Of a stretch of 32,000 nt of DNA, positions 1,692-22,700 are shown in pieces (within the stretch, counting starts at the first letter, position 1; each line of letters starts with the position of its first letter). The translations under genes were made by a program, and so were the position numbers. This DNA comes from Promethearchaeota archaeon (GTDB lineage: Archaea > Asgardarchaeota > Lokiarchaeia > Sigyniarchaeales > Promethearchaeaceae): positions 4,933 through 36,932 of the forward strand of contig JAFGBS010000036.1 of the NCBI GenBank assembly GCA_016933055.1, given 5' to 3'. The notes under the pieces are model-generated. The model had not been told where the DNA came from. It saw nothing but the letters and a program-made list of their open reading frames with translations, and ran no database searches.

Positions 1692-1834
1692 CAATATCCC
1701 TATATGATTCTCTTTAAAAATAATTACTGTATCCCGTTTATAAAGGTTTGAAGTCTAAAGAACTTTCATTATCAGGGGATTAATATTTATTATTTCAAAT
1801 TTGTGACGTGATAGTACGATTTTGATTCTATTTA

Positions 1835-1954
1835 GATTCTGTGGACCCGAACCTTTATCCGTCTCACCTACCCGCATGAACTGTTTAAAACTACGTTGTT
1901 AACTATTCAGACAATACTGTTACCTCTTCTACATGTGTTGAGAGAGGAAAAATG
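1835..1954 (+). repeat. Dispersed non-coding repeat, copy 1 (pairs with 8703-8822)
   Basis: Ungapped manual alignment to 8703-8822 gives 101/120 identities; weaker similarity extends to ~1820 and ~1990. Confidence 0.9.
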
Positions 1955-1994
1955 GATGAAAAATTATTTAAATCACTAGATAGATGTTGACTGG

Positions 1995-2174
1995 TTATAC
2001 TGGATTTGGAGGTGGGTTGGGATCATGCATAATTTCAACCACATCTGATTGAGAACTCTCTTCTTGCTCTCCAAACCACTCATTATCATTGTTTTGAGCA
2101 ATAACTTCGAGTGTGGAAGTTTCTATCGAGTCTGGAGTGTCAATGCTATAAACATGGGATGTTTGTCCACACAT
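1995..2174 (-). CDS. Small acidic, Pro-tailed hypothetical peptide (59 aa) or 3' remnant of a lost gene
   Basis: Manual translation MCGQTSHVYSIDTPDSIETSTLEVIAQNNDNEWFGEQEESSQSDVVEIMHDPNPPPNPV*. The frame stays open ~30 codons further upstream without a start codon. Confidence 0.3.
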   Translation of the reverse strand: MCGQTSHVYSIDTPDSIETSTLEVIAQNNDNEWFGEQEESSQSDVVEIMHDPNPPPNPV

Positions 2175-2440
2175 TATTTCTCTCTTGTTGCAGAAATTTA
2201 TACAATTCTCTTGAAGAACATGATTTAGAAGAAAGAGAACACGAAGAGGATGGGAGGGTGTTCGTCATGAAATTGACAAGATTGGGGTAATCTGTTGCCA
2301 TTTTGTTCGTTTAGGTATTCTTTAAAGATATTTTATTGGAATTTTATCGAAAACGAACAATCAGCACTTAAATTCAACAGTAAAATTATATACGAAATTT
2401 TAGATATACAGAATGAGTTCATTTTATTGAGGAGGTTTTT

Positions 2441-3385
2441 TTGGATAAAAATAATCAAGATTACCTATATTTACGTAAATTAGGATTATCACATGAAGAA
2501 ATCATAAATCGAATAAAACGGTACAGTAATCAGGGATTAACCGAAAGCGATGCATTAAAGACTCTAAAAACAGATGAAGAGAGAATCATTGAAATTCATA
2601 TCGAAATCGAAGGATTAAAAGTTTATTTTCTTAAGGTTCTTGCAGAGATTTTAGAGTTTCAAGTGATCCCAAATTTTCGTCAAGAACCTATTGATCTTGA
2701 ACTCTATGGTATAAACAATCAAAAACTGTATGAAATTAATTCATTACCTGTGTTGTTGGCAGTATTAGAAGAGATTAAAGCAGAAAATGAAAAACGAATA
2801 CCTGCAAAATATCCAGATTGGAATGATTATGGATATTTTCCTTATCATCGAAATCAAGCTATATCCAAATTATTAGAAAGTCGTGATTGGTATGTAGGAA
2901 GGTTAAAAACATATAAAAAACAAGGAATTTCAATAGATTTTCCATTCCAATCAGTAAAACCCACGTTTTTTAAAATTCCTGATAAAATCCAAAATACAAA
3001 CTTAATCTCGGTTATGATGCCTTTCAGAGAAGAATTTGATCCTATTTTTCAGGAAATCATGAAAGTTTGTGAAAACTTATCTATGGAATGCAAACGAGCT
3101 GATCAGATATTCGATAACTATATTGCAATTCAAGATGTGTTTGATTTAATATATCTCGCTCGTTGTATTATTGTGGAACTTACAGGAAAAAATCCGAATG
3201 TATTCTATGAGTTAGGGATTTCTCATGCTTTTGGGAAAAAAGTCATTCCGATTATCCGAAAAAGTGGAGAAAAAATTCCATTCGATGTGCAACATCACAA
3301 GGCTATCGAATATGAGGGTGATAAAATGGATGATTTCCGAGAGAAACTGGATAAACGACTAAAAATCATATTGAGTATTGCTTAG
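2441..3385 (+). CDS. Protein with C-terminal nucleoside 2-deoxyribosyltransferase-like (NDT/TIR-like) domain; putative nucleotide-cleaving defence effector
   Basis: SVMMPF...CKRADQI...IIVELTGKNPNVFYELGISHAFGKKVIPI...IPFDV is the characteristic NDT-like pattern; GAGGAGG SD upstream of the TTG start. Confidence 0.75.
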   Translation: MDKNNQDYLYLRKLGLSHEEIINRIKRYSNQGLTESDALKTLKTDEERIIEIHIEIEGLKVYFLKVLAEILEFQVIPNFRQEPIDLELYGINNQKLYEINSLPVLLAVLEEIKAENEKRIPAKYPDWNDYGYFPYHRNQAISKLLESRDWYVGRLKTYKKQGISIDFPFQSVKPTFFKIPDKIQNTNLISVMMPFREEFDPIFQEIMKVCENLSMECKRADQIFDNYIAIQDVFDLIYLARCIIVELTGKNPNVFYELGISHAFGKKVIPIIRKSGEKIPFDVQHHKAIEYEGDKMDDFREKLDKRLKIILSIA

Positions 3386-3508
3386 TTGAATGAGATTTCA
3401 TTCAAACTATCATAATCTTAATGGAATCGAATTTTACGTGAAAAAGGATTTTCAGGTAATTATTTAAGTCTCAATGTTAAAGGAATTCAATGGTATTATT
3501 ACTTTTTA

Positions 3509-6085
3509 ATGGGTCTAGGGGTAAAGATGAGTACGTTAACCAAAATGGGTGTGGAATTATATAATCTGATCAGCAACGTATTACGTTCTTATTCAAATGA
3601 AATCTCACCTTATGAAGCATTTGTCGATGAAATTGCTCAAAATTTCTTTGATTCTGCTAAAAAATATTATAGGTATTGCGTCAAGGAAAATGTAAAACCA
3701 ATAAATTCATCAATGAAAGTTCTTTTTATCGAAGATTATAATGGAAAACCAGCAATTGTAATTAAACAAACCGGTACAACAGGTATTATCCATAGAAAAG
3801 AATATGTCACATATTCTTTAACTCAAAAGGATAAGGATGAAGACGCTGCAGGAAGTCAAGGAGTTGGCTGGAAAATATGGTTTATGATATGCGATGAAGT
3901 GCATACAGAGACTATAGTCGATGGGAGATATTATCAAACTCTCCAAAGGGTAGAAAATAGAGATATAAAGGTCGCCCATAATGACGATAATTGGAGTACA
4001 TATTTTGAACATTTTCAAGACACATTAATAAGTGAAAATGGAGAAACTTCAATAAAGTTCTTGAATGTGAACAATTCACACGGTTTTAACGAAGATGAAT
4101 CAACAACATATTTTCAAGAATTATGGAAATGTTGTGAAAAAGTAATTCAGGAAAGATATTATTGGGCTCTGAAAAAATATCCTACATTTAGTGTTGATTT
4201 GATTTATACAAATTCAAAAAAAACTCAACCATCTCAGAAAGTCACTATCTCCCTTAATGAATACCCTCCTTTATATCCAGGATTAAATGATTCCGATTGC
4301 AGAACCTCAAATAAATTCATTCGTAACAAGACCAAAAATTACGGTGTGGTCAAAGATATCTTTGTTGGATTTACAAATGAAATTCATTCAAAAATAAATG
4401 ATGGAGTAGCAATTATTGTCAGAGATAGGGTAGTTGAATGGTATAATCCTAGGTCACAATGGGTTGGAACGCCTGGTGCTAATGGAAAATTAATTGGTCA
4501 TGTTTGTTGTGATTTTCTATATAAAAAAGACAATATGACTCATGATAAATTAAATGATATTTTTCCCGAAGTAAAACTGACTAGGCATTTCATAAGAACG
4601 TTGATACAGAAACTATACGTAAAAATAAATGAACTTCATGTTGTTGATGTGCCTAAAGTTTCACACGGAAATACAATTTTAACAACAATAAACAACGCAA
4701 TTGCTGAATTTATTGATAGTGAGGATTTGTTTTCAGAAGCAAAATCAGATATTGACTATGAACCTTTGGGAGAAGAACCATTTAATAAAACTCCTAAACC
4801 TGAGAAATTCATTTATATCAAAGGAATTTTATTAACTGAAAAAATTGAAGATGGAATTCCCCAAAAAATGAATGATACTGATCCATTAACTCCGAGTAAT
4901 GAATATAGCGCGTTAGTGGAAATTTTAAACACAAAAGATGAATGTGAAGCTATTGTCAATTACTCTTCATTTCCAAAATATTTTGAAATTAAAAGAGCGA
5001 TAAAAATATCCCCAGGAACCACTAAGGACATTTTTAAATTCCAGATACCCGAAGATGCAATGAGAGGAGCATTTCATTTAAAAAGTATTGTTAGATCTCA
5101 AGATGAAAAACTATTGGAAAAAAGGATCATTTCAAGAGAAATCCTACCTATAATTTCAAAGGTAGAATTATCTGAAAGAAATTTTGAGAGAGGGAATGAA
5201 TATCAAATTTCCTATAAGGTTTGTAGATCCTCTTTGAGGGGAAACAGAGAATTCTCGTGCAAAATATATGACAATGAAAATTTTGAAATTCATGAAGAAG
5301 GACCTATAACTTTAAAACGGGCTGAAACAGATAAAATTGAATCTTTTTATTTTAAAATTCCCCCTCAAGCACTAAGAGGGAGATATACTTTTGAGTATCA
5401 GGTAAAAAATGGACCAAATATCATACAAAAAGGAAGAGAATACTTCTTTGTGGAGTTATTCATCAATAGAATAAAATCATCAAAACGAATTGTAAAGTAC
5501 AATGAAAAATTTGATATTACCGTCGATCTTGAAAATAAAAGACAGATCCCTGTAGAAGATGCAGAATTAACAATAAGAATTGAAAATTCTAATCATTTTG
5601 AAATGAAAAAAGAATTTACAAACATTTCTATTCAGAAAAATTCAGACTTCGCAATAAAACTTGGAGATTTAGAATTTGATGAAGATTGTGATACAGGAAA
5701 ATATAGTGTTATTGTTGAATTCAAGCTAGAAGATGATTTTGCTCCAGAAGTGAAAACAACAAAAATTTTCCTCGAAACAGAAACTAGTACCAAAGATTCG
5801 AAGGGAGCTCTTAGTCATTTTGATTATAATAAGAGCATTAAAGGATATGAGGATAAAAATCTGGCAGTTTCTGTTGAAGGCACAATAATGATCAATACTT
5901 TTCATTATTTATTTAGGCGAATTGAAACTCCTACTGGGATTGATCTCAATCTATTCAAACAATGCATCATTCAAGCATTATGGTTTGCGTTTCGAGATCA
6001 GATAACAAAGGATAATAGATTTGAAGAAATGTGGGAATTTGAGAAATATATACTAGAGGATAAAAAATTGGGGGAGATTTTATGA
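3509..6085 (+). CDS. GHKL-family (MORC/MutL/Hsp90-like) ATPase with three tandem Ig-like beta-sandwich repeats
   Basis: Bergerat motifs: EIAQNFFD (ExxxNxxD), QTGTTGI (variant G1), AAGSQGVGWK (G2), GETSIKF. Three ~100-aa beta-rich repeats with FxIPxxAxRGxY/F-type corners; C-terminal IMINTFHYLF. True start may be ATG 3527. Confidence 0.75.
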   Translation: MGLGVKMSTLTKMGVELYNLISNVLRSYSNEISPYEAFVDEIAQNFFDSAKKYYRYCVKENVKPINSSMKVLFIEDYNGKPAIVIKQTGTTGIIHRKEYVTYSLTQKDKDEDAAGSQGVGWKIWFMICDEVHTETIVDGRYYQTLQRVENRDIKVAHNDDNWSTYFEHFQDTLISENGETSIKFLNVNNSHGFNEDESTTYFQELWKCCEKVIQERYYWALKKYPTFSVDLIYTNSKKTQPSQKVTISLNEYPPLYPGLNDSDCRTSNKFIRNKTKNYGVVKDIFVGFTNEIHSKINDGVAIIVRDRVVEWYNPRSQWVGTPGANGKLIGHVCCDFLYKKDNMTHDKLNDIFPEVKLTRHFIRTLIQKLYVKINELHVVDVPKVSHGNTILTTINNAIAEFIDSEDLFSEAKSDIDYEPLGEEPFNKTPKPEKFIYIKGILLTEKIEDGIPQKMNDTDPLTPSNEYSALVEILNTKDECEAIVNYSSFPKYFEIKRAIKISPGTTKDIFKFQIPEDAMRGAFHLKSIVRSQDEKLLEKRIISREILPIISKVELSERNFERGNEYQISYKVCRSSLRGNREFSCKIYDNENFEIHEEGPITLKRAETDKIESFYFKIPPQALRGRYTFEYQVKNGPNIIQKGREYFFVELFINRIKSSKRIVKYNEKFDITVDLENKRQIPVEDAELTIRIENSNHFEMKKEFTNISIQKNSDFAIKLGDLEFDEDCDTGKYSVIVEFKLEDDFAPEVKTTKIFLETETSTKDSKGALSHFDYNKSIKGYEDKNLAVSVEGTIMINTFHYLFRRIETPTGIDLNLFKQCIIQALWFAFRDQITKDNRFEEMWEFEKYILEDKKLGEIL

Positions 6086-7740
6086 CAGAGAAATTATTAG
6101 ACACCGATAAAGGAAAACAAGATTATATAGATCCTATTGTAGGTGAAGATCCACTACTAAATACAGAAAAATCAGGTAGAGTATCTCAGATAGCTCAAAA
6201 GTTGCACCAAGCTTTGAATTTCAATGATAATGAATGGATTCAACTTGCGTTAGACTTACTCGTTGGGAAGATGATTATGGATTATAAATATCTAGTTATG
6301 GTAAAATATTCAGAGTATATAGGATTAGGAAAACAGAATATTTTTCTGGTTCATGATATCGGGACACTTGTTAATGATTTTGTGTCAAAACGAGAAATAG
6401 ATTTAGAAAATAAAGAGTTTCGAAAGAGCTCAGGATTTACATTTAATCGAGGAAGTGTGATAAATCATCTAACCTCTCTAATAGATTTTTCGTCCAAAAA
6501 TGAAAAAAAATACAATTTCAATCAAACATATCTTCGAAATTTTTCAACTATTGCATATGAGTTTGACAAAAATGAATTGGATCCTGAAATCCCTGTATAC
6601 ATATATAAAGAATTAGTAGAACGAGTTCCAGTAGATATGTTTGAAACCCCTAATCAAAGAAAAAGGTTTCAAAATAATATATTAGAATTGCGTAGAGAAG
6701 AAACTTTCACAGACAGACACTTGAGGATTATAATAAATTTAGTAAGGGAAGATCCTATAAATAGAGCAAAAATTGAGTACATACGTCGAATTTTGCCTGA
6801 TGTAAAAGAAATTAAAACTTCTATGAGTTTTCCTGATGCTTTAAATTATGTCAAATCTATTGAAAAATCTGGTAAGCAGAAAAAAGAACAAGTACTTCCC
6901 AGTTTGGAACAGAATGGAGTGCTTCGTTTACCACAAGCTAATGATGTTTCAAAATTCATCAAAATTGTCCAAGATGTTTCTCATGGAATAACAAAACCAG
7001 AACAATTAGCCGATAATATAGAAATTTCTGAACGCCAGATACATTATTATAAGGATGCAGCTCAAATTCTAAATTTATTAACAGAGAATGGGAGAAATTA
7101 TACATTCACACTCACCTCTATTGGTCAAAAACTTGCTGAGACTAAAGACGAAAACGAACAGAATGAAATTTTATATCACCAAATAATGAAAACCGAAGTT
7201 ATTAAGCACATTTTCTTAATGTTAAAAGAAAGTCAAGAAGATTATATCCTCGTTGAAGAATACTTGAATGATTTAAAGCATAGGAGTGCTCTATCTGATT
7301 CTACGATCGCAAGAAGAACAGCAGCTATAATAAGCTGGATTAGATGGATTGAAAGTTACAATGAATTATTACGGATTGTCGAAGAAAAAATAATAGTTAA
7401 GAACGAATTCTCTTGGAATTGCGTTAAAAAACAAATTCTTGAAATTATCAATAAATATCGAACAATCAATACACTAGCTAATGGAAAACCAAATATTATC
7501 GAAGTATTTGATGATACAGGATTAATGGTAAAGACTGATCACGACTCAGAAGCAAAAAAAGTTTCATTTAACACAATTAAAGATGTATGGTTCAATTTAG
7601 TAGAATATGGAGAATTAGAACTGGATAATCATGAGCTGACCTCTTATAGAAGTTCGTTTGTTTGCTCTTTATTGTCTCAATTACCAATTGTCAATGTTTT
7701 AAAAGAGGGAAAAATCTCGATAAAATTGGTTGGGATTTAA
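6082..7740 (+). CDS. Multidomain putative DNA-binding protein (winged-helix PQAxD...RQxxYY module typical of restriction-associated proteins)
   Basis: ATGA overlap with the upstream stop. LPQANDVSKFIKIV...SERQIHYYKDAAQILNLL...FTLTSIGQKL resembles wHTH modules fused to restriction enzymes and methylases; no catalytic motif found. Confidence 0.6.
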   Translation: MTEKLLDTDKGKQDYIDPIVGEDPLLNTEKSGRVSQIAQKLHQALNFNDNEWIQLALDLLVGKMIMDYKYLVMVKYSEYIGLGKQNIFLVHDIGTLVNDFVSKREIDLENKEFRKSSGFTFNRGSVINHLTSLIDFSSKNEKKYNFNQTYLRNFSTIAYEFDKNELDPEIPVYIYKELVERVPVDMFETPNQRKRFQNNILELRREETFTDRHLRIIINLVREDPINRAKIEYIRRILPDVKEIKTSMSFPDALNYVKSIEKSGKQKKEQVLPSLEQNGVLRLPQANDVSKFIKIVQDVSHGITKPEQLADNIEISERQIHYYKDAAQILNLLTENGRNYTFTLTSIGQKLAETKDENEQNEILYHQIMKTEVIKHIFLMLKESQEDYILVEEYLNDLKHRSALSDSTIARRTAAIISWIRWIESYNELLRIVEEKIIVKNEFSWNCVKKQILEIINKYRTINTLANGKPNIIEVFDDTGLMVKTDHDSEAKKVSFNTIKDVWFNLVEYGELELDNHELTSYRSSFVCSLLSQLPIVNVLKEGKISIKLVGI

Positions 7741-8432
7741 TGAATTCACATGATGCTATTGCTCGGAAATTTGAGAATTATTTCCAAAACGCACGTATGA
7801 CTTCAAGCTATAAACCTGTGATGTTATTGTCAATTTTGTATCATATTAAACAAAGAAAATCCACGTATCTTCCTTCTGCGAATATTTATTTTATTTCATT
7901 GAATGATATCGCACTATTTTTTCTGAAATTCTATTTTTATACGCTTAAGTATTATGATCTTAACCATTTGACCAATAAAAATAACAAAATTGGGATTTAC
8001 AGAATAATTGAGAAATATTTCCGTGATTTCAATACATTCCCAGAGTACTTAAATCATAAAATTATCACAAAAACAATCAACCAATTATTTCGAAATGTTA
8101 TCTTCTTGCTACTGAATGATATATATTTATATGATTTTTACGATGAGCAATTTCAAGAATTTCGATTACCTCACGAGTTTATTGGTAAAGATGATTTTCG
8201 AGTTGTTATCAAAAATAAAAAAATTCGAGTCGAAGAAATTAAGTACTTAGGAATTAAAGAATCAGCATACCTTTATCTTAGTTTAAATTATACGAATCTT
8301 AAAAAGAAGATAAACCTAAATTTGATTCAATTTCTAAAAAAAGTAAATTACTCTTTTGATTCCTTTGATGAAATAGATAGATTTTATGATAATTTATCAA
8401 ATTTGAAAAATATGATGTCAGATTCTAATTAG
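7740..8432 (+). CDS. SBD-like (SYKxxLLxxI) winged-helix reader-domain protein lacking the usual C-terminal HNH nuclease
   Basis: TAATG overlap gives start at 7740 (track extends to 7662). TSSYKPVMLLSIL...ISLNDIALFFLKFY matches the N-terminal domain of many HNH restriction proteins; no CxxC/HNH motif before the stop. Confidence 0.55.
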   Translation: MNSHDAIARKFENYFQNARMTSSYKPVMLLSILYHIKQRKSTYLPSANIYFISLNDIALFFLKFYFYTLKYYDLNHLTNKNNKIGIYRIIEKYFRDFNTFPEYLNHKIITKTINQLFRNVIFLLLNDIYLYDFYDEQFQEFRLPHEFIGKDDFRVVIKNKKIRVEEIKYLGIKESAYLYLSLNYTNLKKKINLNLIQFLKKVNYSFDSFDEIDRFYDNLSNLKNMMSDSN

Positions 8433-8702
8433 CTCAGAAATTCTATTTCTAAAGATATGGTAATTTGTCGTCTTGGACTCTCTGGAAAGAATGGAAACTA
8501 CCGAAAAAGTATTTTTTCAAATTAGGATTAATTCGGTAGAATTTGCTAAAAATATGAATATAATCTTGGAACAGCACTATCGAAATTTTTTATTGTATTT
8601 TAAATCAGTAAAAATGTAAAATGCAAAGTCCAAAGTGTAAACAATAGGAATTGCTATTGGTCCACATCTTTAATGTGATAACATATTTTTGATTCCATTT
8701 TT

Positions 8703-8822
8703 GGTTCTGTGGATACGAGCCTTTATCCGTGCCACCTACCCGCACGAACCGTTTAACACTATATTGTTACCTATTCGGACTATACTGTTACCTCTTTAAC
8801 ATGTGTCAAGTGAGGAAAAATG
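8703..8822 (+). repeat. Dispersed non-coding repeat, copy 2 (pairs with 1835-1954)
   Basis: 101/120 identity to copy 1; ends in GAGG-AAAAATG; weaker similarity extends to ~8687 and ~8848. Confidence 0.9.
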
Positions 8823-14063: not shown

Positions 14064-14897
14064 TTAAGAGCATGAATCACACAAAGGATTTTCACGTGAT
14101 ACATTACTCTCCTCTCCACATTTCAAACAAAACTTTCCTTTTTCATGTTTATAATAGCAAACTGTACAAAATGGAGTTTTTACGTTAAAAAAAACGAATT
14201 TTCTACAACCTATACAAAATCCACGTTCTTCAATTGGGCGTAGACTTAGTTTACCACATTCTGGACAAATTAGAGTTTTATTACTATCTGTATTATGCAT
14301 TAACTCAAAACCGCACAATTTACAAAGCCATATTCCTGATCGCTGTTCTTTAAAATTTTCAGGTTTAACTTTTATTTCTTGACTTGAATTCATTATCGTC
14401 CAATCAATTGCAGGTAACAATTTTTCGTCGTATTCATCTGCAGTTTCGTGAATTGGTGTTGTATCTCCTGACCTCCTCATGGTTTCGACGTTTTCTATAA
14501 CCTTGTCATATAAATTCTTATCCTTTATCGAAGTTTCTGGTTCTATTAAGAATCCCATTTCCCAATTTTTTTTCCAGGAAGATTTAAGAAGGTTTAGAGA
14601 TGAAACAACCATTTTATTCTCATTATAATAACATTTCGAATGTAAATTAGCAACACAATAAAGATTAACATATTTCAACTCTTCCGCTACACGCTTTGCT
14701 TCTTGGATAGTCGCTTTTTTCTTACGATAATATATTTCGACTAAAATACCTCTCTCCTTAGATGCATATTTAAGATGAGAGTAGATTTTTTCCGGAAAGT
14801 CCAGAAAAGGACTGATTATAATTATGAACTTCCTCGCATCAATTATAACTTTAACAATCTCACCGCATGCTGCTTCCATAGGTAGAAATTCGACCAT
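14064..14897 (-). CDS. PLD-family (single HxK motif) putative nuclease with C-terminal Cys-rich Zn fingers
   Basis: IISPFL; NLHSKCYYNENKMVVSSLNL...NWEMG; multiple CxxC pairs at the C-terminus. Confidence 0.8.
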   Translation of the reverse strand: MVEFLPMEAACGEIVKVIIDARKFIIIISPFLDFPEKIYSHLKYASKERGILVEIYYRKKKATIQEAKRVAEELKYVNLYCVANLHSKCYYNENKMVVSSLNLLKSSWKKNWEMGFLIEPETSIKDKNLYDKVIENVETMRRSGDTTPIHETADEYDEKLLPAIDWTIMNSSQEIKVKPENFKEQRSGIWLCKLCGFELMHNTDSNKTLICPECGKLSLRPIEERGFCIGCRKFVFFNVKTPFCTVCYYKHEKGKFCLKCGEESNVSRENPLCDSCS

Positions 14898-17025: not shown

Positions 17026-17490
17026 GTGGTGGGTGTGGGTAACGAAAATCCTTTTGAGGATTTGCCGGATGCTCTTGTGCATGATATGCTTGAAAGATCC
17101 GACAAAATTAGTAATACTCTAACGAAATCATTTAGCTCAATAATGGAAAAAAAGGATGAAATTCGAAATTTGTTTAAAGGGATGAATTTACTTCATAATT
17201 TTAGTGAACTTAAGGAACGGGTAGACTATCCATTTTATCCATTATCTTGCGGAGTGGATGGTGCTAATGCTATTGATAAATTAGTTTCATCAGACATTTT
17301 TGCAGTTGCGGCAGTAACAGTTCATGGATTTGATCCAAAGGAACGAATTATTGAAAATTTGGAGAAATCTCAGCATAAATTTGAGATTGAACCAATAAAG
17401 CATGAACCAATACAGAATTATTTTGCAAAGCAATCAGGTTCTGTATGGAACTTGTACTAGGAAACAAATCAAAAGAGCATGCTGTTTCTC
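17026..17490 (+). pseudogene. nurA: NurA-family nuclease N-terminal fragment (frameshift ~17408, then truncated)
   Basis: NPFEDLPDALV...SCGVDGANAIDKLVSSDIFAVAAV; a shifted frame continues NTELFCKAIRFCMELVLG (cf. ILRAxMxxMELxLA). Confidence 0.65.
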
Positions 17491-17571
17491 TAACCATTTC
17501 TATCATACCCATTCTTTTAGTTCCATGCTCTTTGGTGTGATATAAGTTCGATTAATTAATGATGTTAAGAT

Positions 17572-18282
17572 TTGAATCGATATGTCAATCTTTTCTTTGG
17601 AAATTCCCCTGGAGCAAGAATATGTAGCCAATCATTAACTCTTTGCCTATATTCTAATACAATATCTATTAATATTTTTGCTTCATTAGGAATAAAGGCA
17701 TCAGGTCGGACGAAAAAACTTCCAAATTCCTATCGAAATTCCAAAAGAGTAGGCGAATTCGCACAATTTATCATGCCCAAAAAATTGAAAGAATTATCAA
17801 AATCACAAGATGAATTTAGATTTCCCGAAAAATATATCGGAATGCATGGAAGTATCAATTATGTAATTGCAAAATCAAAAATTGAGGAATATGATGAAAT
17901 CTTAAAGATAATTCAAGAAGAATTGAAGAATTCGACTAAAGGAAAATCATTTTTAGTTTTATTCCAAAGAAATCCATGGAACGACCGAAATAATAAGTTC
18001 TTTTCACAAGCTATGAAATACGATTTATTTGAAAATTTCCTGGATACTTGTACTTCCAGTGGATATGGGATTGTTGTGACTAGTTTGAGGAAAGCTAAAG
18101 GTTTAGAAGCTGACATCGTGTTCATTCCTGACCTGGAACAATATTATTATCAAGATCGACAACTCCTATATGTAGGAATGACTCGGACGAAAAATAAGTT
18201 GATATTATCATCGACTGAACCGAGCCAACCTAAGTCACTGGTGGAAGAAATCCAAAAATATCCCGATTGGCAAGAAGAATAG
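17572..18282 (+). pseudogene. C-terminal half of an SF1 (UvrD/REP-like) helicase; Walker A/B missing
   Basis: LPNSYRNS, TSLRKAKGLEADIVFI, LLYVGMTRTKNKL (motifs IV-VI); no N-terminal P-loop upstream. Confidence 0.7.
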
Positions 18283-18424: not shown

Positions 18425-19657
18425 ATGTGTGTGAATGTGGAGTTACAAAATCAAATTAGAATAAAATTTGAAGATCTTCCAAGAGCAGAATTAGTCTACG
18501 ATGCAATTTATGAGGGAGGCAGCACCGGAAATATTTCAGACGACGTTCTAAGTAATTTGTTTGAGGGTATCGGTAATTCGGGAGGTTTTCGCATATGCAA
18601 AAAAGTCGCTGACCCAGATGAAATTGCATATGTTATTCTCTATACAACAGGTTCTGAAATTGAATGGCCCGATATTTTCGACATATATCTCGGCACATTT
18701 CGTTATTGGGGCGACAATCGCACACCTGGAAAGGATATTCATGATACGCCCAAAGGTGGAAATAAACTCTTATTGGAAGTATTCGAAAAAATTGATAAGA
18801 GTGCTGAGGAGAGAAAATCAATTCCACCGTTTTTAGTCTTTCAAAAGATAGGAATGAAAAGAAATGTCAAATTCCTAGGATTGGCATGTCCTGGAAGAGA
18901 AAACTCGTCGTTAGTCGAGGATCTTCAAGCGGTATGGAAACATACTAATAATCAGAGATTTCAGAATTATCGTGCTTATTTTACAATTCTAAATATTGGT
19001 CCTGATAAAATTCGCAGAGACTGGCTCCAAGCACTGAGAAACGGAACAGATCCCGTACTATATCTAGCACCTAAAGCATGGAAAAATTTTGTGTTAAATG
19101 GACGAAAGGGAATTCATCCTCTAAAATCAGAACGTTTAACAAAATATCGAAATAAAGAAGAACAGCTTCCAAATAAACGAGAAAAATTACCCTTAGTAAA
19201 TGCGATATATAATTATTTTAAAGAGGATCCTTATGCTTTCGAACCTTGTGGCGCAGAACTTGCACAAATGATGGATGAAAACATAATTGATGTAGACATT
19301 ACTCGAACTCATCGTGACGGTGGAAGAGATGCTCTAGCAAAATACAAGATTGGCATTAAGGATAATAACTTACTGGTGGAATGCGCTATGGAAATGAAGT
19401 GCTATTCTCTCGAAAATTCTTGCGGAGTCAAAGAAACTTCAAGATTAATATCTCGTATTCGACATCGACAGTTTGGGATTTTGGTTACAACTAGTTACAT
19501 TGCAGGTCAAGCCTACAAGGAAATTGTGGAAGATGAACACCCCATATTGATTATATCCGCAGGAGATATAGCGGAGATACTTATTAAACATGGATATAAC
19601 AGCGTAGAGAAAGTAAAAGAATGGTTGAAAAAATTCCCACAAATAAGAAATGCATAA
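18425..19657 (+). CDS. AspBHI/MspJI-type modification-dependent (type IV) restriction endonuclease: SRA-like N-terminal domain plus Mrr-type catalytic domain
   Basis: DAIYEGG, GNSGGFR, EWPD, FRYWGDNRTPG (AspBHI N-domain); DGGRDA...EMKCY...RLISRIRHRQFGILVTTS (Mrr_cat PD-(D/E)xK). Confidence 0.9.
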   Translation: MCVNVELQNQIRIKFEDLPRAELVYDAIYEGGSTGNISDDVLSNLFEGIGNSGGFRICKKVADPDEIAYVILYTTGSEIEWPDIFDIYLGTFRYWGDNRTPGKDIHDTPKGGNKLLLEVFEKIDKSAEERKSIPPFLVFQKIGMKRNVKFLGLACPGRENSSLVEDLQAVWKHTNNQRFQNYRAYFTILNIGPDKIRRDWLQALRNGTDPVLYLAPKAWKNFVLNGRKGIHPLKSERLTKYRNKEEQLPNKREKLPLVNAIYNYFKEDPYAFEPCGAELAQMMDENIIDVDITRTHRDGGRDALAKYKIGIKDNNLLVECAMEMKCYSLENSCGVKETSRLISRIRHRQFGILVTTSYIAGQAYKEIVEDEHPILIISAGDIAEILIKHGYNSVEKVKEWLKKFPQIRNA

Positions 19658-19853: not shown

Positions 19854-22700
19854 TCAGTCTTCATAACGCATCCCACCATATTTCTTATAATCTTCCAAAA
19901 ATCGCTCTGCTTTCTTTTTCTCTTTCGCATACCTATTATCTAATTCCCTTTTCCGATGTAAATCTTCCTGCTCATTCTTTACAAACCACTCTTGTATATA
20001 GAAAGTTTGTTCTTCTCCATATTCGAATCCATAACTTGGACGGGTAACACTTTTAGGAAGCCAGATTTCGATGTTCTCTTGAAAATCATTTTTTACCTCA
20101 CAACAAATCGCATCCATAGATGTTCGAATAATTTTACCCTTAATTCTATAGGTTCCAGTATTGGATGTTAAGTTCGCAAAGAATTCCTCTCTAGTGGTCG
20201 GTATTTGGTCTAAGAATTCGGATAAGTTGGGTAGTTGGGCGAAAATGTGCACTTGTTTTTTAGCCCGAGTCAATGCAACATAAAATAGTCTTCTCTCTTC
20301 ATCTAAGTCATCGGGCAGGTCGGGATTGATGAGTTTGTGGTCAAAAGAGGATGTCAATTCCGAGGGTAATCCGTATAAACCTTTATACACATTCATTAAA
20401 ATCACGTATTCAGCTTCCAATCCTTTCGCTTTATGGATAGAATGGAATCGAATCCCGTTTCTGACCATTTCACCTTCCTTCATTAGCGCTACTGGAATTT
20501 CCTTGTCTTTAAGGCAATAATCAAACAGATCTGAGTACCCGAAATTAAATCGGGAGAGAATCATAATTTCCTTGGGATCTACTCCCTCTCGAATCCATTT
20601 CTTAATCAAATCCACAATTAGGTCGTGCTGTTCTTGGGTAAAACTACGTTTACCGCCATACATTCGCTTTAAGAACATCGATGGTTCGTCAGTTCTATTC
20701 ACTGGAACTAAATCTTTCGGAATATAATCTGAACAGGCATTTATATGCGTAGAACTAAAATTAACTATAGGAGGGGGATTACGATAATTCAACTGTAATA
20801 TCGTTTGAGCCACGGGGAAAAAAAATTGATCTAATTTGACCATGTATTTATTAGATGCTCCTGAAAATCCATAAATTGACTGCCAATCATCTCCTACGAA
20901 AAACATATGGCATTCCTTTCCTCTTTTGCGTAATTCTTGGAGTAATCGTAAACGCTGAAACGAAATGTCCTGAAACTCATCGATGAAGATCATGGTATAG
21001 CTACAAAATTCTTTCGCTTCTTCATTCGTTACTGGCCGTTCCAGATATTGTACGGCATGGTTTATCATATCTTGATAATCAATTTTCCCTTGTGCAGCAA
21101 GATAATCCTCATATGCTTCAAATATGGGGAAAACAAGAGTTAAAAAAGCGTGATCTTTCCGATGTAGTTTCTTATTGCGCAGATGGGTAGAAAGAGTCGT
21201 TGAATTATATCCATAAATTTTAGCATCCATGATCGTAGTATGAATCATATCCGAAAGGATCTTCAGACGATGGGGTAAATTGTCTATACGTTTAATAATT
21301 TCTTGATGAGATAGGGGTGCTGCCTCTCGATTTTGGATTTTCCATAATTGCCGAACAAAATCCAATAGTTTTTTCGATAATTTCCCGGTTTTCCAATCCC
21401 AATAATCCGTTTCCAGTAAATTCTTGCCATATTTTCTAAACTGAGCCTTTTTCCATTCCATTTCTTTAAAATATTTAGGCACATCCTCAATAACGGGATT
21501 ATACACGTTTGGAAAATCTTTCGAAATACCCCAGTGCTCAAGATAGGTATCGAATTCTGGTAAATAGAAATCGGGGTGATATTCACGCCCGGACTCATCC
21601 TTATCACACCAATCTACTTTCATTTCATACACAAAATTTATCCCGTGAGTGATAAAGAAGTTCGCAATTTCTTTCTCAGCAACGCTTTTTACTCGACTTC
21701 CATCCAATGCCTCATAGGGTTTATTTTCTTGGTAACTATACATCTTTCGAAGTCTTTCTTCATTTTCTTCCTCCTCAGCGATAAATTCGGAAATATTGCT
21801 ATAGTATTGGATGTATAAATGCTGGTAAATCGGATCATCAGCTTTTTTGATTTCAATTAATTCTCGGATTACATGGGTTGTATTCTCCTCTACCCTAATC
21901 TCTTCTTCCCTATCTTTAAAACGATTAACAATTTTAAATCCCAGACTATGAAAAGTGCGTACTTCCACATCTTGAATTCCATAAATATTCTTCAAGCGTT
22001 CAATTATCTCAGCAACAGCTGTTCGATTGTATGCCATAACCAAAATGCCTTCAGCAGGAATTTCCTTTTTTAATACATAAAAAGCAACTCGATCTACTAA
22101 TACTCGAGTTTTTCCAGACCCAGGTCCTGCTACAACGAGGTTATTGTCATCGTTAACCAAGATTGCCCGAATTTGGTTTTCATTTAATTGAACGGATTGA
22201 TTAAACTCCGTACCATCAAAAAAGGAATGATATTTCTGCCTATGTTTTTTTAAGTAAACTGTATTATATTCTCGGACAAAATTTTCCAAACGGTTAATCT
22301 TTTCTTCAATATGTCTTGTTTCCTCCCTCCATATTCTTCCGAATCCCCTTAATTGGTTTTTATAAGATTTCAAAGTCTTATCTATTGCGTTCTTTTTCGA
22401 AGTAGTGAGATAATTGGAATACTCCTCTAAAAGAGAAAAAATTCCACGATGAAATTCATCATATTCAGTTTCAAATTGTGCAATTTTTTGTATACTCTCT
22501 CGTTCGCGATAGAATTTCCAAACAGACAAGTAAGTATCTCGTAAGAATAGAGCAACAATGCCAATAGATGCAAACAGTGCGAGAATAAACCAAGGATTAA
22601 CTACTATAGTCAGAATAAAGAAACTGATCGTAATTATAACACTCGAGATAACAATCATCCATTCTTTAAGAGGGATATTTAGTTCATTCTCCATGCGCAA
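19854..22700 (-). CDS. UvrD-family DNA helicase IV (HelD)-like protein with N-terminal TM helices and an inserted PD-(D/E)xK-like nuclease domain
   Basis: AGPGSGKT, DEFQD, GDDWQSIY, NYR, HKAKGLE, EERRLFYVALTRA; insert VKSVAEKEIANF...YE...YHPDFYL...YLEHWG; hydrophobic residues ~14-53. Confidence 0.85.
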   Translation of the reverse strand: MRMENELNIPLKEWMIVISSVIITISFFILTIVVNPWFILALFASIGIVALFLRDTYLSVWKFYRERESIQKIAQFETEYDEFHRGIFSLLEEYSNYLTTSKKNAIDKTLKSYKNQLRGFGRIWREETRHIEEKINRLENFVREYNTVYLKKHRQKYHSFFDGTEFNQSVQLNENQIRAILVNDDNNLVVAGPGSGKTRVLVDRVAFYVLKKEIPAEGILVMAYNRTAVAEIIERLKNIYGIQDVEVRTFHSLGFKIVNRFKDREEEIRVEENTTHVIRELIEIKKADDPIYQHLYIQYYSNISEFIAEEEENEERLRKMYSYQENKPYEALDGSRVKSVAEKEIANFFITHGINFVYEMKVDWCDKDESGREYHPDFYLPEFDTYLEHWGISKDFPNVYNPVIEDVPKYFKEMEWKKAQFRKYGKNLLETDYWDWKTGKLSKKLLDFVRQLWKIQNREAAPLSHQEIIKRIDNLPHRLKILSDMIHTTIMDAKIYGYNSTTLSTHLRNKKLHRKDHAFLTLVFPIFEAYEDYLAAQGKIDYQDMINHAVQYLERPVTNEEAKEFCSYTMIFIDEFQDISFQRLRLLQELRKRGKECHMFFVGDDWQSIYGFSGASNKYMVKLDQFFFPVAQTILQLNYRNPPPIVNFSSTHINACSDYIPKDLVPVNRTDEPSMFLKRMYGGKRSFTQEQHDLIVDLIKKWIREGVDPKEIMILSRFNFGYSDLFDYCLKDKEIPVALMKEGEMVRNGIRFHSIHKAKGLEAEYVILMNVYKGLYGLPSELTSSFDHKLINPDLPDDLDEERRLFYVALTRAKKQVHIFAQLPNLSEFLDQIPTTREEFFANLTSNTGTYRIKGKIIRTSMDAICCEVKNDFQENIEIWLPKSVTRPSYGFEYGEEQTFYIQEWFVKNEQEDLHRKRELDNRYAKEKKKAERFLEDYKKYGGMRYED

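What the first reader, a model, noticed from the sequence alone, without database searches (positions are those of the whole stretch)
2441..8432. Candidate undescribed defence system: NDT-like effector + GHKL-(Ig)3 ATPase + multi-wHTH protein + nuclease-less SBD-like reader
Seen: four co-oriented genes, the last three translationally coupled (ATGA at 6082-6085, TAATG at 7738-7742), intact amid many pseudogenes and enclosed by a pair of direct repeats. Established: prokaryotic MORC-like GHKL ATPases associate with restriction-modification loci; PQAxD/RQxxYY wHTH and SYKxxLL domains are usually fused to restriction nucleases; NDT/TIR-like domains act as nucleotide-depleting effectors in conflict systems. 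Unusual: I find no nuclease or methyltransferase motif in the operon, and I know no named system with this gene set. Inference: DNA-modification or foreign-DNA readers coupled through a GHKL clamp to an abortive nucleotide-cleaving effector.
Basis: partly seen in the sequence, partly recalled or inferred. Interest (0 to 1): 0.85.

Follow-up and report, generated by a model that had tools for sequence, protein, structure and literature searches.

The report
Rare GHKL ATPase–partner defence-like module
In a defence island of an Asgard-type archaeon, a very rare unnamed gene pair (an Hsp90/MORC-like ATPase with three Ig-like domains and a helical partner) lies between an unrelated NDT-like gene and a nuclease gene that has lost its cutting domain; it looks like a new branch of the MORC-type restriction-linked ATPases, not a new four-gene system.

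Summary
The four co-oriented ORFs, both start/stop overlaps and the flanking repeat are real. Only g2 and the first ~260 residues of g3 travel together. g2 is a GHL-type ATPase by predicted fold (Z 18-19 to Hsp90, MORC3 and SMCHD1), followed by three Ig-like domains. No Pfam, PADLOC or PDB sequence search detects it. Only 14 relatives exist among 1.8 billion representative proteins, and in 6 of 6 loci with downstream DNA a homologue of the g3 N-domain follows directly. Their neighbours vary: HNH, PD-(D/E)XK-like, TIR, DNA methylases and Z1/Mza genes. These are the paraMORC themes of Iyer et al. 2008.

g1 belongs to a large family of stand-alone genes with an NDT-like C-domain, mostly fused to AbiJ_NTD5, so it is probably an independent neighbour. 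g4 is not a designed "nuclease-less reader". It is an HNH endonuclease gene whose HNH segment was deleted: an intact paralogue lies 8 kb upstream, and the lost gene's tail survives out of frame at 8509-8613. The flanking repeat has at least 6 copies in the genome, next to unrelated genes.

Verdict: a new, rare paraMORC-like two-gene module whose likely nuclease arm has decayed here. Its function is untested. Earlier notes of this scan describe comparable unnamed GHKL-plus-partner cassettes in other genomes; I could not link them to this family by sequence.

The parts
1831..1954 (.). Left copy of a dispersed intergenic repeat; not a specific boundary of the cassette
   Evidence: 124 nt, 84% identical to 8699-8822. 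At least 6 copies in the genome, after unrelated genes.
2441..3385 (+). g1, 314 aa: unique N-terminal region plus an NDT/TIR-like C-domain (about residues 185-314, motif NPNVFYELG with E257). Probably an independent single-gene module.
   Evidence: PADLOC TIR 'Effector' PDLC00733 at 1.6e-8. Weak DNPH1/Rcl hits over 231-276. 723 homologues of the C-domain, mostly 257-aa AbiJ_NTD5 fusions. 5 of 21 family members hit PF05014. Homologues are stand-alone genes in unrelated contexts.
3527..6085 (+). g2, 852 aa (858 from ATG 3509): divergent GHL ATPase module (residues about 11-395: Bergerat fold plus transducer/middle domain), three Ig-like beta-sandwich domains (about 435-756) and a conserved C-terminal domain (about 780-858)
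   Evidence: AF2 model with pLDDT 72. VIA Z 19.1 to Hsp90, 18.1 to MORC3, 17.7 to SMCHD1. Foldseek matches alpha2-macroglobulin MG domains for the repeats. Conserved motifs DExxQNFxD, QTGxxG, GSxGxGWK and TET. No Pfam, PADLOC, NCBIfam or PDB sequence hit.
6082..6870 (+). g3 N-domain (residues about 30-263): all-alpha partner domain, the only part of g3 conserved next to g2 relatives
   Evidence: 20-48% identical to the gene directly downstream of every g2 relative with downstream DNA. AF2 pLDDT 80, pTM 0.73, 12 helices. No fold match.
6958..7356 (+). g3 middle domain (residues 293-425): DUF7226 / AAA_assoc_C winged-helix-type domain
   Evidence: PF23871 at 1.1e-17, 64.7 bits against a cut-off of 27; PF09821 at 1.3e-6. 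Atlas neighbours are DUF7226 proteins.
7411..7737 (+). g3 C-terminal ~110-aa domain ('SYRSSF' domain), a lineage-specific accretion
   Evidence: 37% identical to the C-end of the HxlR-type wHTH protein L012:211-990. Found in 10 of 400 genomes of the phylum, always at the C-end of ~225-310-aa proteins. Atlas shape matches include parts of Mrr_cat, PLD and GmrSD proteins; these are leads only.
7740..8432 (+). g4, 230 aa: N-terminal (target-recognition type) domain of an HNH endonuclease gene; the catalytic domain is deleted
   Evidence: 39% identical over 223 aa to L012:3477-4565, a 362-aa protein with HNH_4/HNH at 246-290. Atlas TM about 0.7 to N-domains of HNH_4 proteins.
8509..8613 (+). Out-of-frame remnant of the C-terminal tail of the former full-length g4 HNH gene
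   Evidence: tblastn: paralogue residues 312-346 match at 71% identity, E 2e-11, in another frame. Residues 228-311 (the HNH segment) have no match.
8699..8822 (.). Right copy of the dispersed intergenic repeat

Best explanation
The functional unit is a two-gene module: g2 plus the N-terminal domain of g3. g2 is a very divergent GHL (gyrase/Hsp90/MutL/MORC-type) ATPase with three Ig-like domains and a conserved C-terminal domain. The g3 N-domain is an all-helical partner that is always encoded immediately downstream. I read this pair as a new, rare branch of the paraMORC-type ATPases that work in restriction-modification-like defence. By analogy with MutL and MORC (inference), the ATPase dimerises on nucleotide binding into a clamp, the partner targets it to DNA, and a neighbouring, exchangeable effector executes. 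The effectors seen across loci are HNH, PD-(D/E)XK-like and TIR/NDT-like proteins, sometimes with a methylase marking self DNA. In this archaeon the partner has acquired two DNA-reader-type domains (DUF7226 and the 'SYRSSF' domain). The translationally coupled downstream gene was an HNH endonuclease of a type that also accompanies a SYRSSF-domain protein 8 kb upstream. Its HNH segment has since been deleted, so the nuclease arm of this copy is dead. g1 (NDT-like) is most likely a separate single-gene abortive-infection-type module that merely sits next door. Shown: the folds, the motifs, the conserved pairing, the variable neighbours and the g4 deletion. Inferred: complex formation, DNA clamping, defence function and which protein was the effector.
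For: GHL fold: model residues 11-395 align to Hsp90 (Z 19.1, 316 aligned), MORC3 (Z 18.1, rmsd 3.9, 297 aligned), SMCHD1, TopoVI-B and GyrB (Foldseek). Motifs I, III and IV are conserved in register with the model's secondary structure. The protein language model places it near HATPase_c_3/MORC clusters. Rarity and pairing: there are 14 hits in 1.84e9 representatives. In the window, L007, L008/L009, L010, L011 and L013 the next gene is a homologue of g3 residues 30-260, with a gap of -23 to +13 nt. Defence/R-M neighbours: TIR_2 and an N6_N4 MTase (L007); a NERD/PD-(D/E)XK-like gene (L008); two C5 MTases and an EcoRII-N-like gene (L010); Z1/MzaC (L011); HNH and a SAM-MTase (L013). A distant relative lies after MzaC-MzaD in a genome of the same family. 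The window is itself a defence island. These themes match the published paraMORC contexts: paraMORC1 with HNH, paraMORC4 with TIR, plus C5 MTases and Z1 helicases (PMC2292703). g4 as a former HNH nuclease. The link between the SYRSSF domain and g4-type HNH genes. g1 as independent.
Against: There is no experimental or expression evidence. g2 is not detected by any sequence model of GHKL, MORC, Mza or Tiamat, so assignment to the paraMORC radiation rests on predicted fold and context. The adenine-contacting Asp of motif II is an invariant Gln (Q87) in the family, so ATP binding itself is uncertain. The partner domain has no recognisable fold. With only about 6 loci on short contigs, the neighbour statistics are anecdotal. 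A TIR gene abuts the pair in L007 and paraMORC4 is TIR-linked, so g1 could still be a recruited effector. With the HNH domain gone, the present locus may be inactive.
Confidence: 0.55

Rival explanations
1. One reading: all four genes form one system. The g3/g4 readers detect foreign or modified DNA, the GHKL clamp transmits the signal, and the NDT-like g1 depletes nucleotides or NAD as an abortive effector.
For: The genes are co-oriented and adjacent. g1 has an effector-type NDT/TIR-like domain with the Glu motif. A TIR_2 gene abuts the homologous pair in L007. paraMORC4 is fused to or neighboured by TIR (PMC2292703). With the HNH gone, g1 is the only enzyme-like candidate left.
Against: None of the five related loci carries a g1 or g4 homologue. 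The L007 TIR protein is not homologous to g1 and is convergent. The g1 C-domain family has 723 members, mostly 257-aa AbiJ_NTD5 fusions that stand alone in unrelated contexts without any GHKL gene. A 123-nt gap separates g1 from g2, whereas g2-g3-g4 overlap. g4's 'nuclease-less' state is a deletion scar.
Confidence: 0.17
2. The locus is a decaying remnant. The system lost function with the HNH deletion, and g2 and g3 are still open only because the loss is recent.
For: The g4 deletion left a still-recognisable out-of-frame tail. Helicase fragments elsewhere in the window (17026-18282, next to a full-length UvrD-like gene) suggest gene decay in this island. The only same-genus genome held has no copy, though it is only 76% complete.
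Against: g2 (2.56 kb) and g3 (1.66 kb) are uninterrupted and full length relative to homologues in a 31% G+C genome, where stops arise easily. All family-invariant motif residues are retained. Relatives such as L007 also lack a coupled nuclease downstream.
Confidence: 0.18
3. A non-defence role: an Hsp90-like chaperone or scaffold with Ig-like domains, acting on protein or cell-envelope substrates.
For: The top structural matches are Hsp90/TRAP1/HtpG. The Ig/MG/CARDB-like domains are typical of surface and protease-inhibitor proteins. Motif II is atypical.
Against: The Z scores for MORC3 and SMCHD1 are tied with those for Hsp90. Every locus has R-M or defence-type neighbours. In the window the partner is fused to DNA-reader-type domains. 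The family is extremely patchy and rare, unlike housekeeping chaperones.
Confidence: 0.07

Closest known systems
Prokaryotic MORC / paraMORC1-5 GHKL+S5 ATPases of restriction-modification-type operons (Iyer, Abhiman & Aravind 2008, PMC2292703)
   Same: An N-terminal GHL ATPase plus middle/transducer module with lineage-specific C-terminal extensions. It is patchy and rare. Neighbours include HNH nucleases, TIR proteins, cytosine and other DNA methylases and Z1 helicases. The function is proposed, not demonstrated.
   Different: No sequence model links g2 to them. Motif II has Gln in place of Asp. It has three Ig-like domains and a distinct C-terminal domain, and an obligate all-helical partner gene directly downstream. 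No SF2 helicase is present in most loci.
Mza system (PADLOC MzaA-E: MutL-like GHKL, Z1, DUF4420, AIPR)
   Same: L011 has a Z1/MzaC-like gene directly upstream of the g2 relative. A distant g2-like gene follows MzaC-MzaD in a genome of the same family (G141).
   Different: The window has no Z1, DUF4420 or AIPR gene. g2 and its relatives do not match any Mza model.
Tiamat and GHKL-Shedu (VcSduA): single-protein GHL ATPase-nuclease defence proteins (bioRxiv 10.64898/2026.09.30.754977; PMC12137116)
   Same: A GHL ATPase coupled to a nuclease as a defence principle, with predicted clamp-like dimers.
   Different: Those proteins are fused to PD-(D/E)XK nucleases (NOV_C/DUF3883, DUF4263). g2 has no nuclease domain and no hit to their models, and it works with a separate partner gene.
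AbiJ_NTD5-NDT-like single-gene proteins (g1's family) and nucleoside 2-deoxyribosyltransferase/DNPH1-type hydrolases
   Same: The g1 C-domain is 45-50% identical to this family. Some members match PF05014. The Glu-containing motif is conserved.
   Different: g1 has a different, unique N-terminal region. Neither its catalytic activity nor that of the family has been tested.
HNH type IV-like endonucleases with an N-terminal recognition domain (HNH_4 family; ScoMcrA-SBD-type architecture)
   Same: g4 equals the N-domain of such a protein: the intact paralogue shares 39% identity and Atlas TM is about 0.7.
   Different: The HNH segment is deleted. g4 gives no Pfam hit to the ScoMcrA SBD model, so what the domain reads is unknown.

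Membership tests
GHKL/GHL ATPase superfamily | Bergerat ATP-binding fold followed by a transducer/middle domain | tested here: met
   The AF2 model aligns over residues 11-395 with Hsp90 (Z 19.1), MORC3 (Z 18.1, rmsd 3.9, 297 aligned), SMCHD1 (17.7) and GyrB (14.7). This is a predicted, not solved, structure.
GHKL/GHL ATPase superfamily | Motif I (ExxxNxxD), motif III (GxxGxG) and motif IV (Thr) | tested here: met
   E41-N45-D48, G115-S-x-G-x-G120 and T133 are invariant or nearly invariant in the family alignment and sit on the expected helix, lid end and strand of the model.
GHKL/GHL ATPase superfamily | Motif II DxGxG with the adenine-binding Asp | tested here: not met
   The family has QTGxxG with an invariant Gln87 at the Asp position. 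The position was assigned from motif order and model secondary structure, not from a residue-level superposition.
GHKL/GHL ATPase superfamily | Match to curated sequence models (Pfam HATPase_c, HATPase_c_3 and the like) | tested here: not met
   No Pfam, NCBIfam or PADLOC hit at E<=1. The family profile finds no GHKL chain in the PDB.
MORC/paraMORC R-M-associated ATPases (Iyer 2008) | Conserved neighbourhood with nucleases, DNA methylases or SF2/Z1 helicases | tested here: met
   L007 has TIR_2 and an N6_N4 MTase. L008 has a NERD/PD-(D/E)XK-like gene. L010 has two C5 MTases. L011 has Z1/MzaC. L013 has HNH and a SAM-MTase. The window has an HNH remnant. Only about 6 loci were available.
MORC/paraMORC R-M-associated ATPases (Iyer 2008) | Sequence membership in MORC or one of paraMORC1-5 (family-specific motifs) | not testable with these tools
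   No profiles of paraMORC1-5 are available here. The Pfam MORC-type models give no hit.
Mza defence system (PADLOC) | Presence of MzaB-E type genes (MutL-like, Z1, DUF4420, AIPR) in the locus | tested here: not met
   None of the four window proteins hits an Mza model. Only relatives (L011, G141) sit beside MzaC/MzaD genes.
Tiamat | Hsp90-like ATPase fused to a NOV_C/DUF3883 PD-(D/E)XK nuclease | tested here: not met
   There is no PADLOC or Pfam hit, and the C-terminal half consists of Ig-like domains.
Nucleoside 2-deoxyribosyltransferase-like (PF05014) / TIR-like effector domains (g1) | Match to the family model and a conserved catalytic Glu | tested here: inconclusive
   g1 itself gives no Pfam hit. 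It matches the PADLOC TIR 'Effector' model at 1.6e-8. 5 of 21 close homologues hit PF05014, best 1.6e-9. DNPH1/Rcl matches have E of about 1-2. E257 in NPNVFYELG is invariant in the family.
DUF7226 (PF23871) (g3 middle domain) | Score above the Pfam gathering threshold | tested here: met
   64.7 bits against a cut-off of 27, E 1.1e-17, residues 293-425.
ScoMcrA-type sulfur-binding domain (SBD) (g4) | Match to the SBD model | tested here: inconclusive
   No Pfam hit at E<=1. Only a 0.82 feature-score lead to a cluster with PF26340 on 30% of members. What is shown is homology to the N-domain of an HNH_4 endonuclease.

The most novel reading that the evidence does not exclude
g2 and its partner define a previously unclassified class of GHL-ATPase immune module, found in Asgard archaea and a few uncultured microbes. 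Its nucleotide pocket has been remodelled (Gln for the adenine-binding Asp), so it may bind or sense a nucleotide other than ATP. Its Ig-like domains and fold-less helical partner would recognise invader components. It would then license exchangeable effectors (HNH, PD-(D/E)XK, TIR/NDT), with g1 serving as the surviving effector in this genome.
Probability: 0.2. Interest if true: 0.75.

Novelty: new variant of a known kind. Interest (0 to 1): 0.55.

Why it matters
GHL ATPases (MORC, paraMORC, Tiamat, GHKL-Shedu) are emerging as immune engines shared by prokaryotes and eukaryotes, yet almost none of the prokaryotic branches has been tested. This family is invisible to current sequence catalogues. 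It has an obligate partner of unknown fold and an altered nucleotide-binding motif, and it occurs in an Asgard archaeon, the lineage nearest to eukaryotes. If it is active, it would add a distinct architecture to this class and give a handle on how GHL clamps are coupled to exchangeable effectors. The case also carries a caution. An apparently designed 'nuclease-less reader' turned out to be a deletion scar, and an adjacent effector-like gene belongs to an independent family.

Tried and rejected
1. Sequence-model searches of g2, g3 N-domain and g4 against Pfam, NCBIfam and PADLOC gave nothing for g2 and g4. Single-sequence and profile searches of the PDB gave nothing for g2, g3 and g4.
2. The word-indexed homologue search found only one relative of g2 and none of full-length g3.
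3. The pattern scan of 185,579 species genomes for g2 relatives found none. tblastn against plasmids and phages found none. A profile search of 400 genomes of the phylum found one distant relative.
4. Complex prediction used g2 residues 1-400, g2 residues 640-858 and partner residues 25-270. It gave no verdict: the score was 0.57, but 0.64 when the g2 N-part was replaced by an unrelated protein, and 0.00 when the partner was replaced. It counts neither for nor against binding.
5. Fold searches for the partner N-domain (Foldseek PDB, AFDB clusters, ESM Atlas and VIA-align against 48,161 chains) gave no match above noise: best E 0.077 and best Z 6.7. Weak rows for ParB/Spo0J/KorB DNA-binding domains recur and are only a lead.
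6. I rejected the idea that the flanking repeats delimit a mobile cassette, because copies lie after unrelated housekeeping and surface-protein genes. No Rfam family and no tRNA was found in the window.
7. The attempt to name the organism through a housekeeping protein in genome contigs found nothing. The domain and phylum type were instead inferred from TBP, actin and Vps28.
8. The bacterial promoter/terminator scan gave chance-level counts and is not applicable to an archaeon.
9. Literature searches found no paper mentioning DUF7226 and no description of a GHKL-Ig-partner system.
10. I tested whether the genes downstream of a g1 homologue (L017/L018) match window ORFs. They do not.


Full report
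OBSERVATION. The window is contig C13:4933-36932 of a 3.76-Mb, 36-contig, 31% G+C genome. The four + strand ORFs exist as described:
- g1 is 2441-3385 (TTG start with GGAGG 6 nt upstream).
- g2 is 3509-6085. The public protein starts at ATG 3527, which has an AGGGG upstream.
- g3 is 6082-7740.
- g4 is 7740-8432.

The overlaps ATGA (6082-6085) and TAATG (7738-7742) are present. g1 and g2 are separated by 123 nt. A 124-nt direct repeat (84% identity) lies at 1831-1954 and 8699-8822. No tRNA or Rfam family lies in the window.

The host is an archaeon of Asgard type. It has four TBP genes, an actin at 435 bits to Pfam Actin and a Vps28 match that none of 14 control genomes gives. The bacterial promoter/terminator scan is therefore irrelevant, and it was at chance level anyway.

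THE REPEAT. It has at least six copies on five contigs. The other copies follow unrelated genes: a malate/lactate dehydrogenase, surface proteins and an aminotransferase. It is a dispersed intergenic element, not a specific boundary of this cassette.

g2. No Pfam, NCBIfam or PADLOC model matches it, and neither the protein nor a family profile finds any PDB chain. An exhaustive HMMER scan of 1.84 billion representatives gives only 14 hits, of which 6-7 are full length.

The family alignment conserves DE(I/L)xQNFxD, QTGxxG, GSxGxGWK and TET. An AlphaFold2 model (pLDDT 72) places these motifs on the helix, strand end, lid end and strand expected for GHKL motifs I-IV. Residues 11-395 superpose on Hsp90 (Z 19.1), MORC3 (Z 18.1, rmsd 3.9 Å, 297 residues), SMCHD1 (17.7), TopoVI-B and GyrB (Foldseek). 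These scores are tied, so the fold does not say which GHL branch is nearest.

Residues ~435-756 form three beta-sandwich domains that match macroglobulin MG and CARDB-type domains. A conserved ~80-residue C-terminal domain follows. The protein language model search independently places g2 near HATPase_c_3/MORC and Big_2 clusters.

One defining feature fails: the adenine-binding Asp of motif II is an invariant Gln (Q87). AFDB holds uncharacterised proteins of 778-872 aa with the same overall architecture, so a wider unnamed superfamily probably exists.

WHAT IS CONSERVED AROUND g2. Every relative for which downstream DNA is available has a homologue of g3 residues ~30-260 as the very next gene:

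| Locus | Partner length | Identity to g3 N-domain (longest local match) |
|---|---|---|
| L007 | 278 aa | 41% |
| L008/L009 | 456 aa | 37% |
| L010 | 300 aa (cut) | 32% |
| L011 | 229 aa | 22% |
| L013 | 269 aa | 48% |

The gaps between the two genes run from -23 to +13 nt. None of these loci has a homologue of g1, of g4, or of the g3 C-terminal half. So the conserved unit is a pair: the ATPase plus a ~250-aa partner domain.

The partner domain folds confidently (pLDDT 80, pTM 0.73) into 12 helices. It has no convincing structural relative: best Foldseek E is 0.077 and best VIA Z is 6.7. Weak rows for ParB/KorB DNA-binding domains recur and are only a lead.

NEIGHBOURS OF THE PAIR:
- L007: a convergent TIR_2 protein and an N6_N4 methylase.
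- L008: a convergent NERD/PD-(D/E)XK-like protein.
- L010: two C5 methylases and an EcoRII-N-like gene upstream.
- L011: a Z1/MzaC-like gene 30 nt upstream.
- L013: an HNH endonuclease and a SAM methyltransferase upstream.

In a genome of the host's own family, a distant 782-aa relative with degenerate motifs follows MzaC and MzaD homologues. The window also carries AspBHI-like, PLD-like and UvrD-like genes. These are the contextual themes that Iyer, Abhiman and Aravind described for prokaryotic MORC and paraMORC ATPases: paraMORC1 with HNH, paraMORC4 with TIR, plus cytosine methylases and Z1 helicases (PMC2292703). A recent preprint restates them for GHL defence proteins (10.64898/2026.09.30.754977).

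g3 C-TERMINAL HALF. Residues 293-425 are a DUF7226/AAA_assoc_C winged-helix-type domain (1.1e-17). No paper mentions this domain.

Residues 444-552 are 37% identical to the C-end of an HxlR-type wHTH protein at C13:211-990, upstream of the window. This domain occurs in 10 of 400 genomes of the phylum, always at the C-end of ~225-310-aa proteins. Those proteins sit beside homologues of the upstream 468-aa and 98-aa genes, and sometimes beside a g4-like HNH gene. The g3 fusion thus looks like a lineage-specific graft of reader domains from another local cassette.

g4. Its 230 residues are 39% identical to the N-terminal 227 residues of C13:3477-4565, a 362-aa protein with an HNH domain at 246-290. 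The Atlas model matches N-domains of HNH_4 endonucleases at TM ~0.7.

Downstream of the g4 stop, at 8509-8613 and in another frame, lies a 35-codon stretch that is 71% identical to residues 312-346 of the paralogue (E 2e-11). Paralogue residues 228-311, the HNH segment, have no counterpart. g4 is therefore a truncated HNH endonuclease gene. An earlier first-reader note of this scan (e1-5415322) gave me this lead, and I verified it. The absence of a nuclease from the operon is secondary.

g1. The C-terminal ~130 residues match PADLOC's TIR 'Effector' model (1.6e-8) and weakly match DNPH1/Rcl. They are 45-50% identical to a family of at least 723 proteins. Of 21 sampled members, 9 carry AbiJ_NTD5 and 5 match PF05014 nucleoside 2-deoxyribosyltransferase (best 1.6e-9). 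The motif NPNVFYELG with E257 is invariant.

These homologues are stand-alone genes, lying among housekeeping genes or in other defence islands, and never beside a g2-like gene. g1 is best read as an independent sensor-plus-NDT-like single-gene module.

MECHANISM (inferred). By analogy with MutL, MORC and Hsp90, nucleotide-driven dimerisation of the g2 N-domains would close a clamp. The partner, here armed with wHTH-type reader domains, would target it to DNA. An adjacent exchangeable effector would execute, with methylases marking self DNA in some loci. In this genome the coupled effector was most likely the HNH nuclease g4, which is now dead. The pair may therefore be inactive, or it may use another effector.

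Confidence:
- Two-gene paraMORC-like defence module: 0.55.
- Decayed remnant: 0.18.
- Non-defence chaperone or scaffold: 0.07.

The complex prediction gave no verdict and is listed only under things tried.

NOVELTY. The kind is known: a GHL ATPase in an R-M-like defence context. This family is not, having no model, no name and no literature. It differs in four ways: three Ig-like domains, an obligate fold-less partner, Gln in motif II and an Asgard host. I class it as a new variant of a known kind.

Earlier notes of this scan report several other unnamed 'GHKL(+Ig) ATPase plus coupled partner (+methylase)' cassettes in other genomes. They agree in theme. A look-up by shared short words with g2 and with relative P0007 found no look-alike of this family in other scanned genomes; that look-up finds only proteins of about 60-70% identity or more.

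Noticed in passing
L012 (contig C13:1-4932, just upstream of the window): 211-990, 1102-2508, 2539-2835(-), 3477-4565: A second cassette holds an HxlR-wHTH protein with the same C-terminal 'SYRSSF' domain as g3, a 468-aa protein with two GIY-YIG-like 'YIG' motifs (read by eye), a 98-aa gene and an intact HNH endonuclease paralogous to g4. The first three genes recur together in at least 6 related archaeal genomes (L036-L043), sometimes with a g4-like HNH gene. This may be another unnamed defence-type system.
   Followed up: partly
whole genome G000 (C15:133360-133863, C10:20448-20957 and 56421-56936, C17:723776-724291; C6:299695-300807; C17:630243-630536): The host is an archaeon with four TBP genes, a eukaryote-like actin (435 bits) and a Vps28 homologue, which is an Asgard-type gene set.
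   Followed up: partly
window 1831-1954 and 8699-8822; L002, L004, L005, L006: A 120-200-nt intergenic repeat has at least 6 diverged copies (73-84% identity), each just after the 3' end of an unrelated gene. It has no Rfam match and its nature is unknown (3' UTR element, small RNA or MITE remnant).
   Followed up: partly
L022 (G141:C42:138-4661, minus strand): The genes run MzaC(Z1), then MzaD(DUF4420), then a 782-aa distant relative of g2 whose ATPase motifs are degenerate (no N-box Asn, no GxxGxG). It may be an inactivated GHL-Ig protein in an Mza-like operon.
   Followed up: partly
window 3509-6085, residue Q87: An invariant Gln replaces the adenine-binding Asp of GHKL motif II across the whole family, while motifs I, III and IV are kept. 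This may mean altered nucleotide specificity.
   Followed up: no
window 14064-14897(-), 17026-18282, 18425-19657, 19854-22700(-): The rest of the window is a defence island. It holds a PLD-like nuclease with a zinc ribbon, an AspBHI-N plus Mrr_cat restriction enzyme, a 948-aa UvrD-like helicase and two short UvrD C-terminal fragments that look like pseudogene pieces.
   Followed up: no
L010:621-9865: Upstream of a g2 relative lie a 1352-aa RVT_1 reverse-transcriptase protein, an EcoRII-N-like 195-aa protein and two C5 DNA methylases.
   Followed up: no
window 1960-2180 (minus strand): A small acidic ORF of about 59 aa, read by eye, lies between the left repeat and g1. It was not examined.
   Followed up: no
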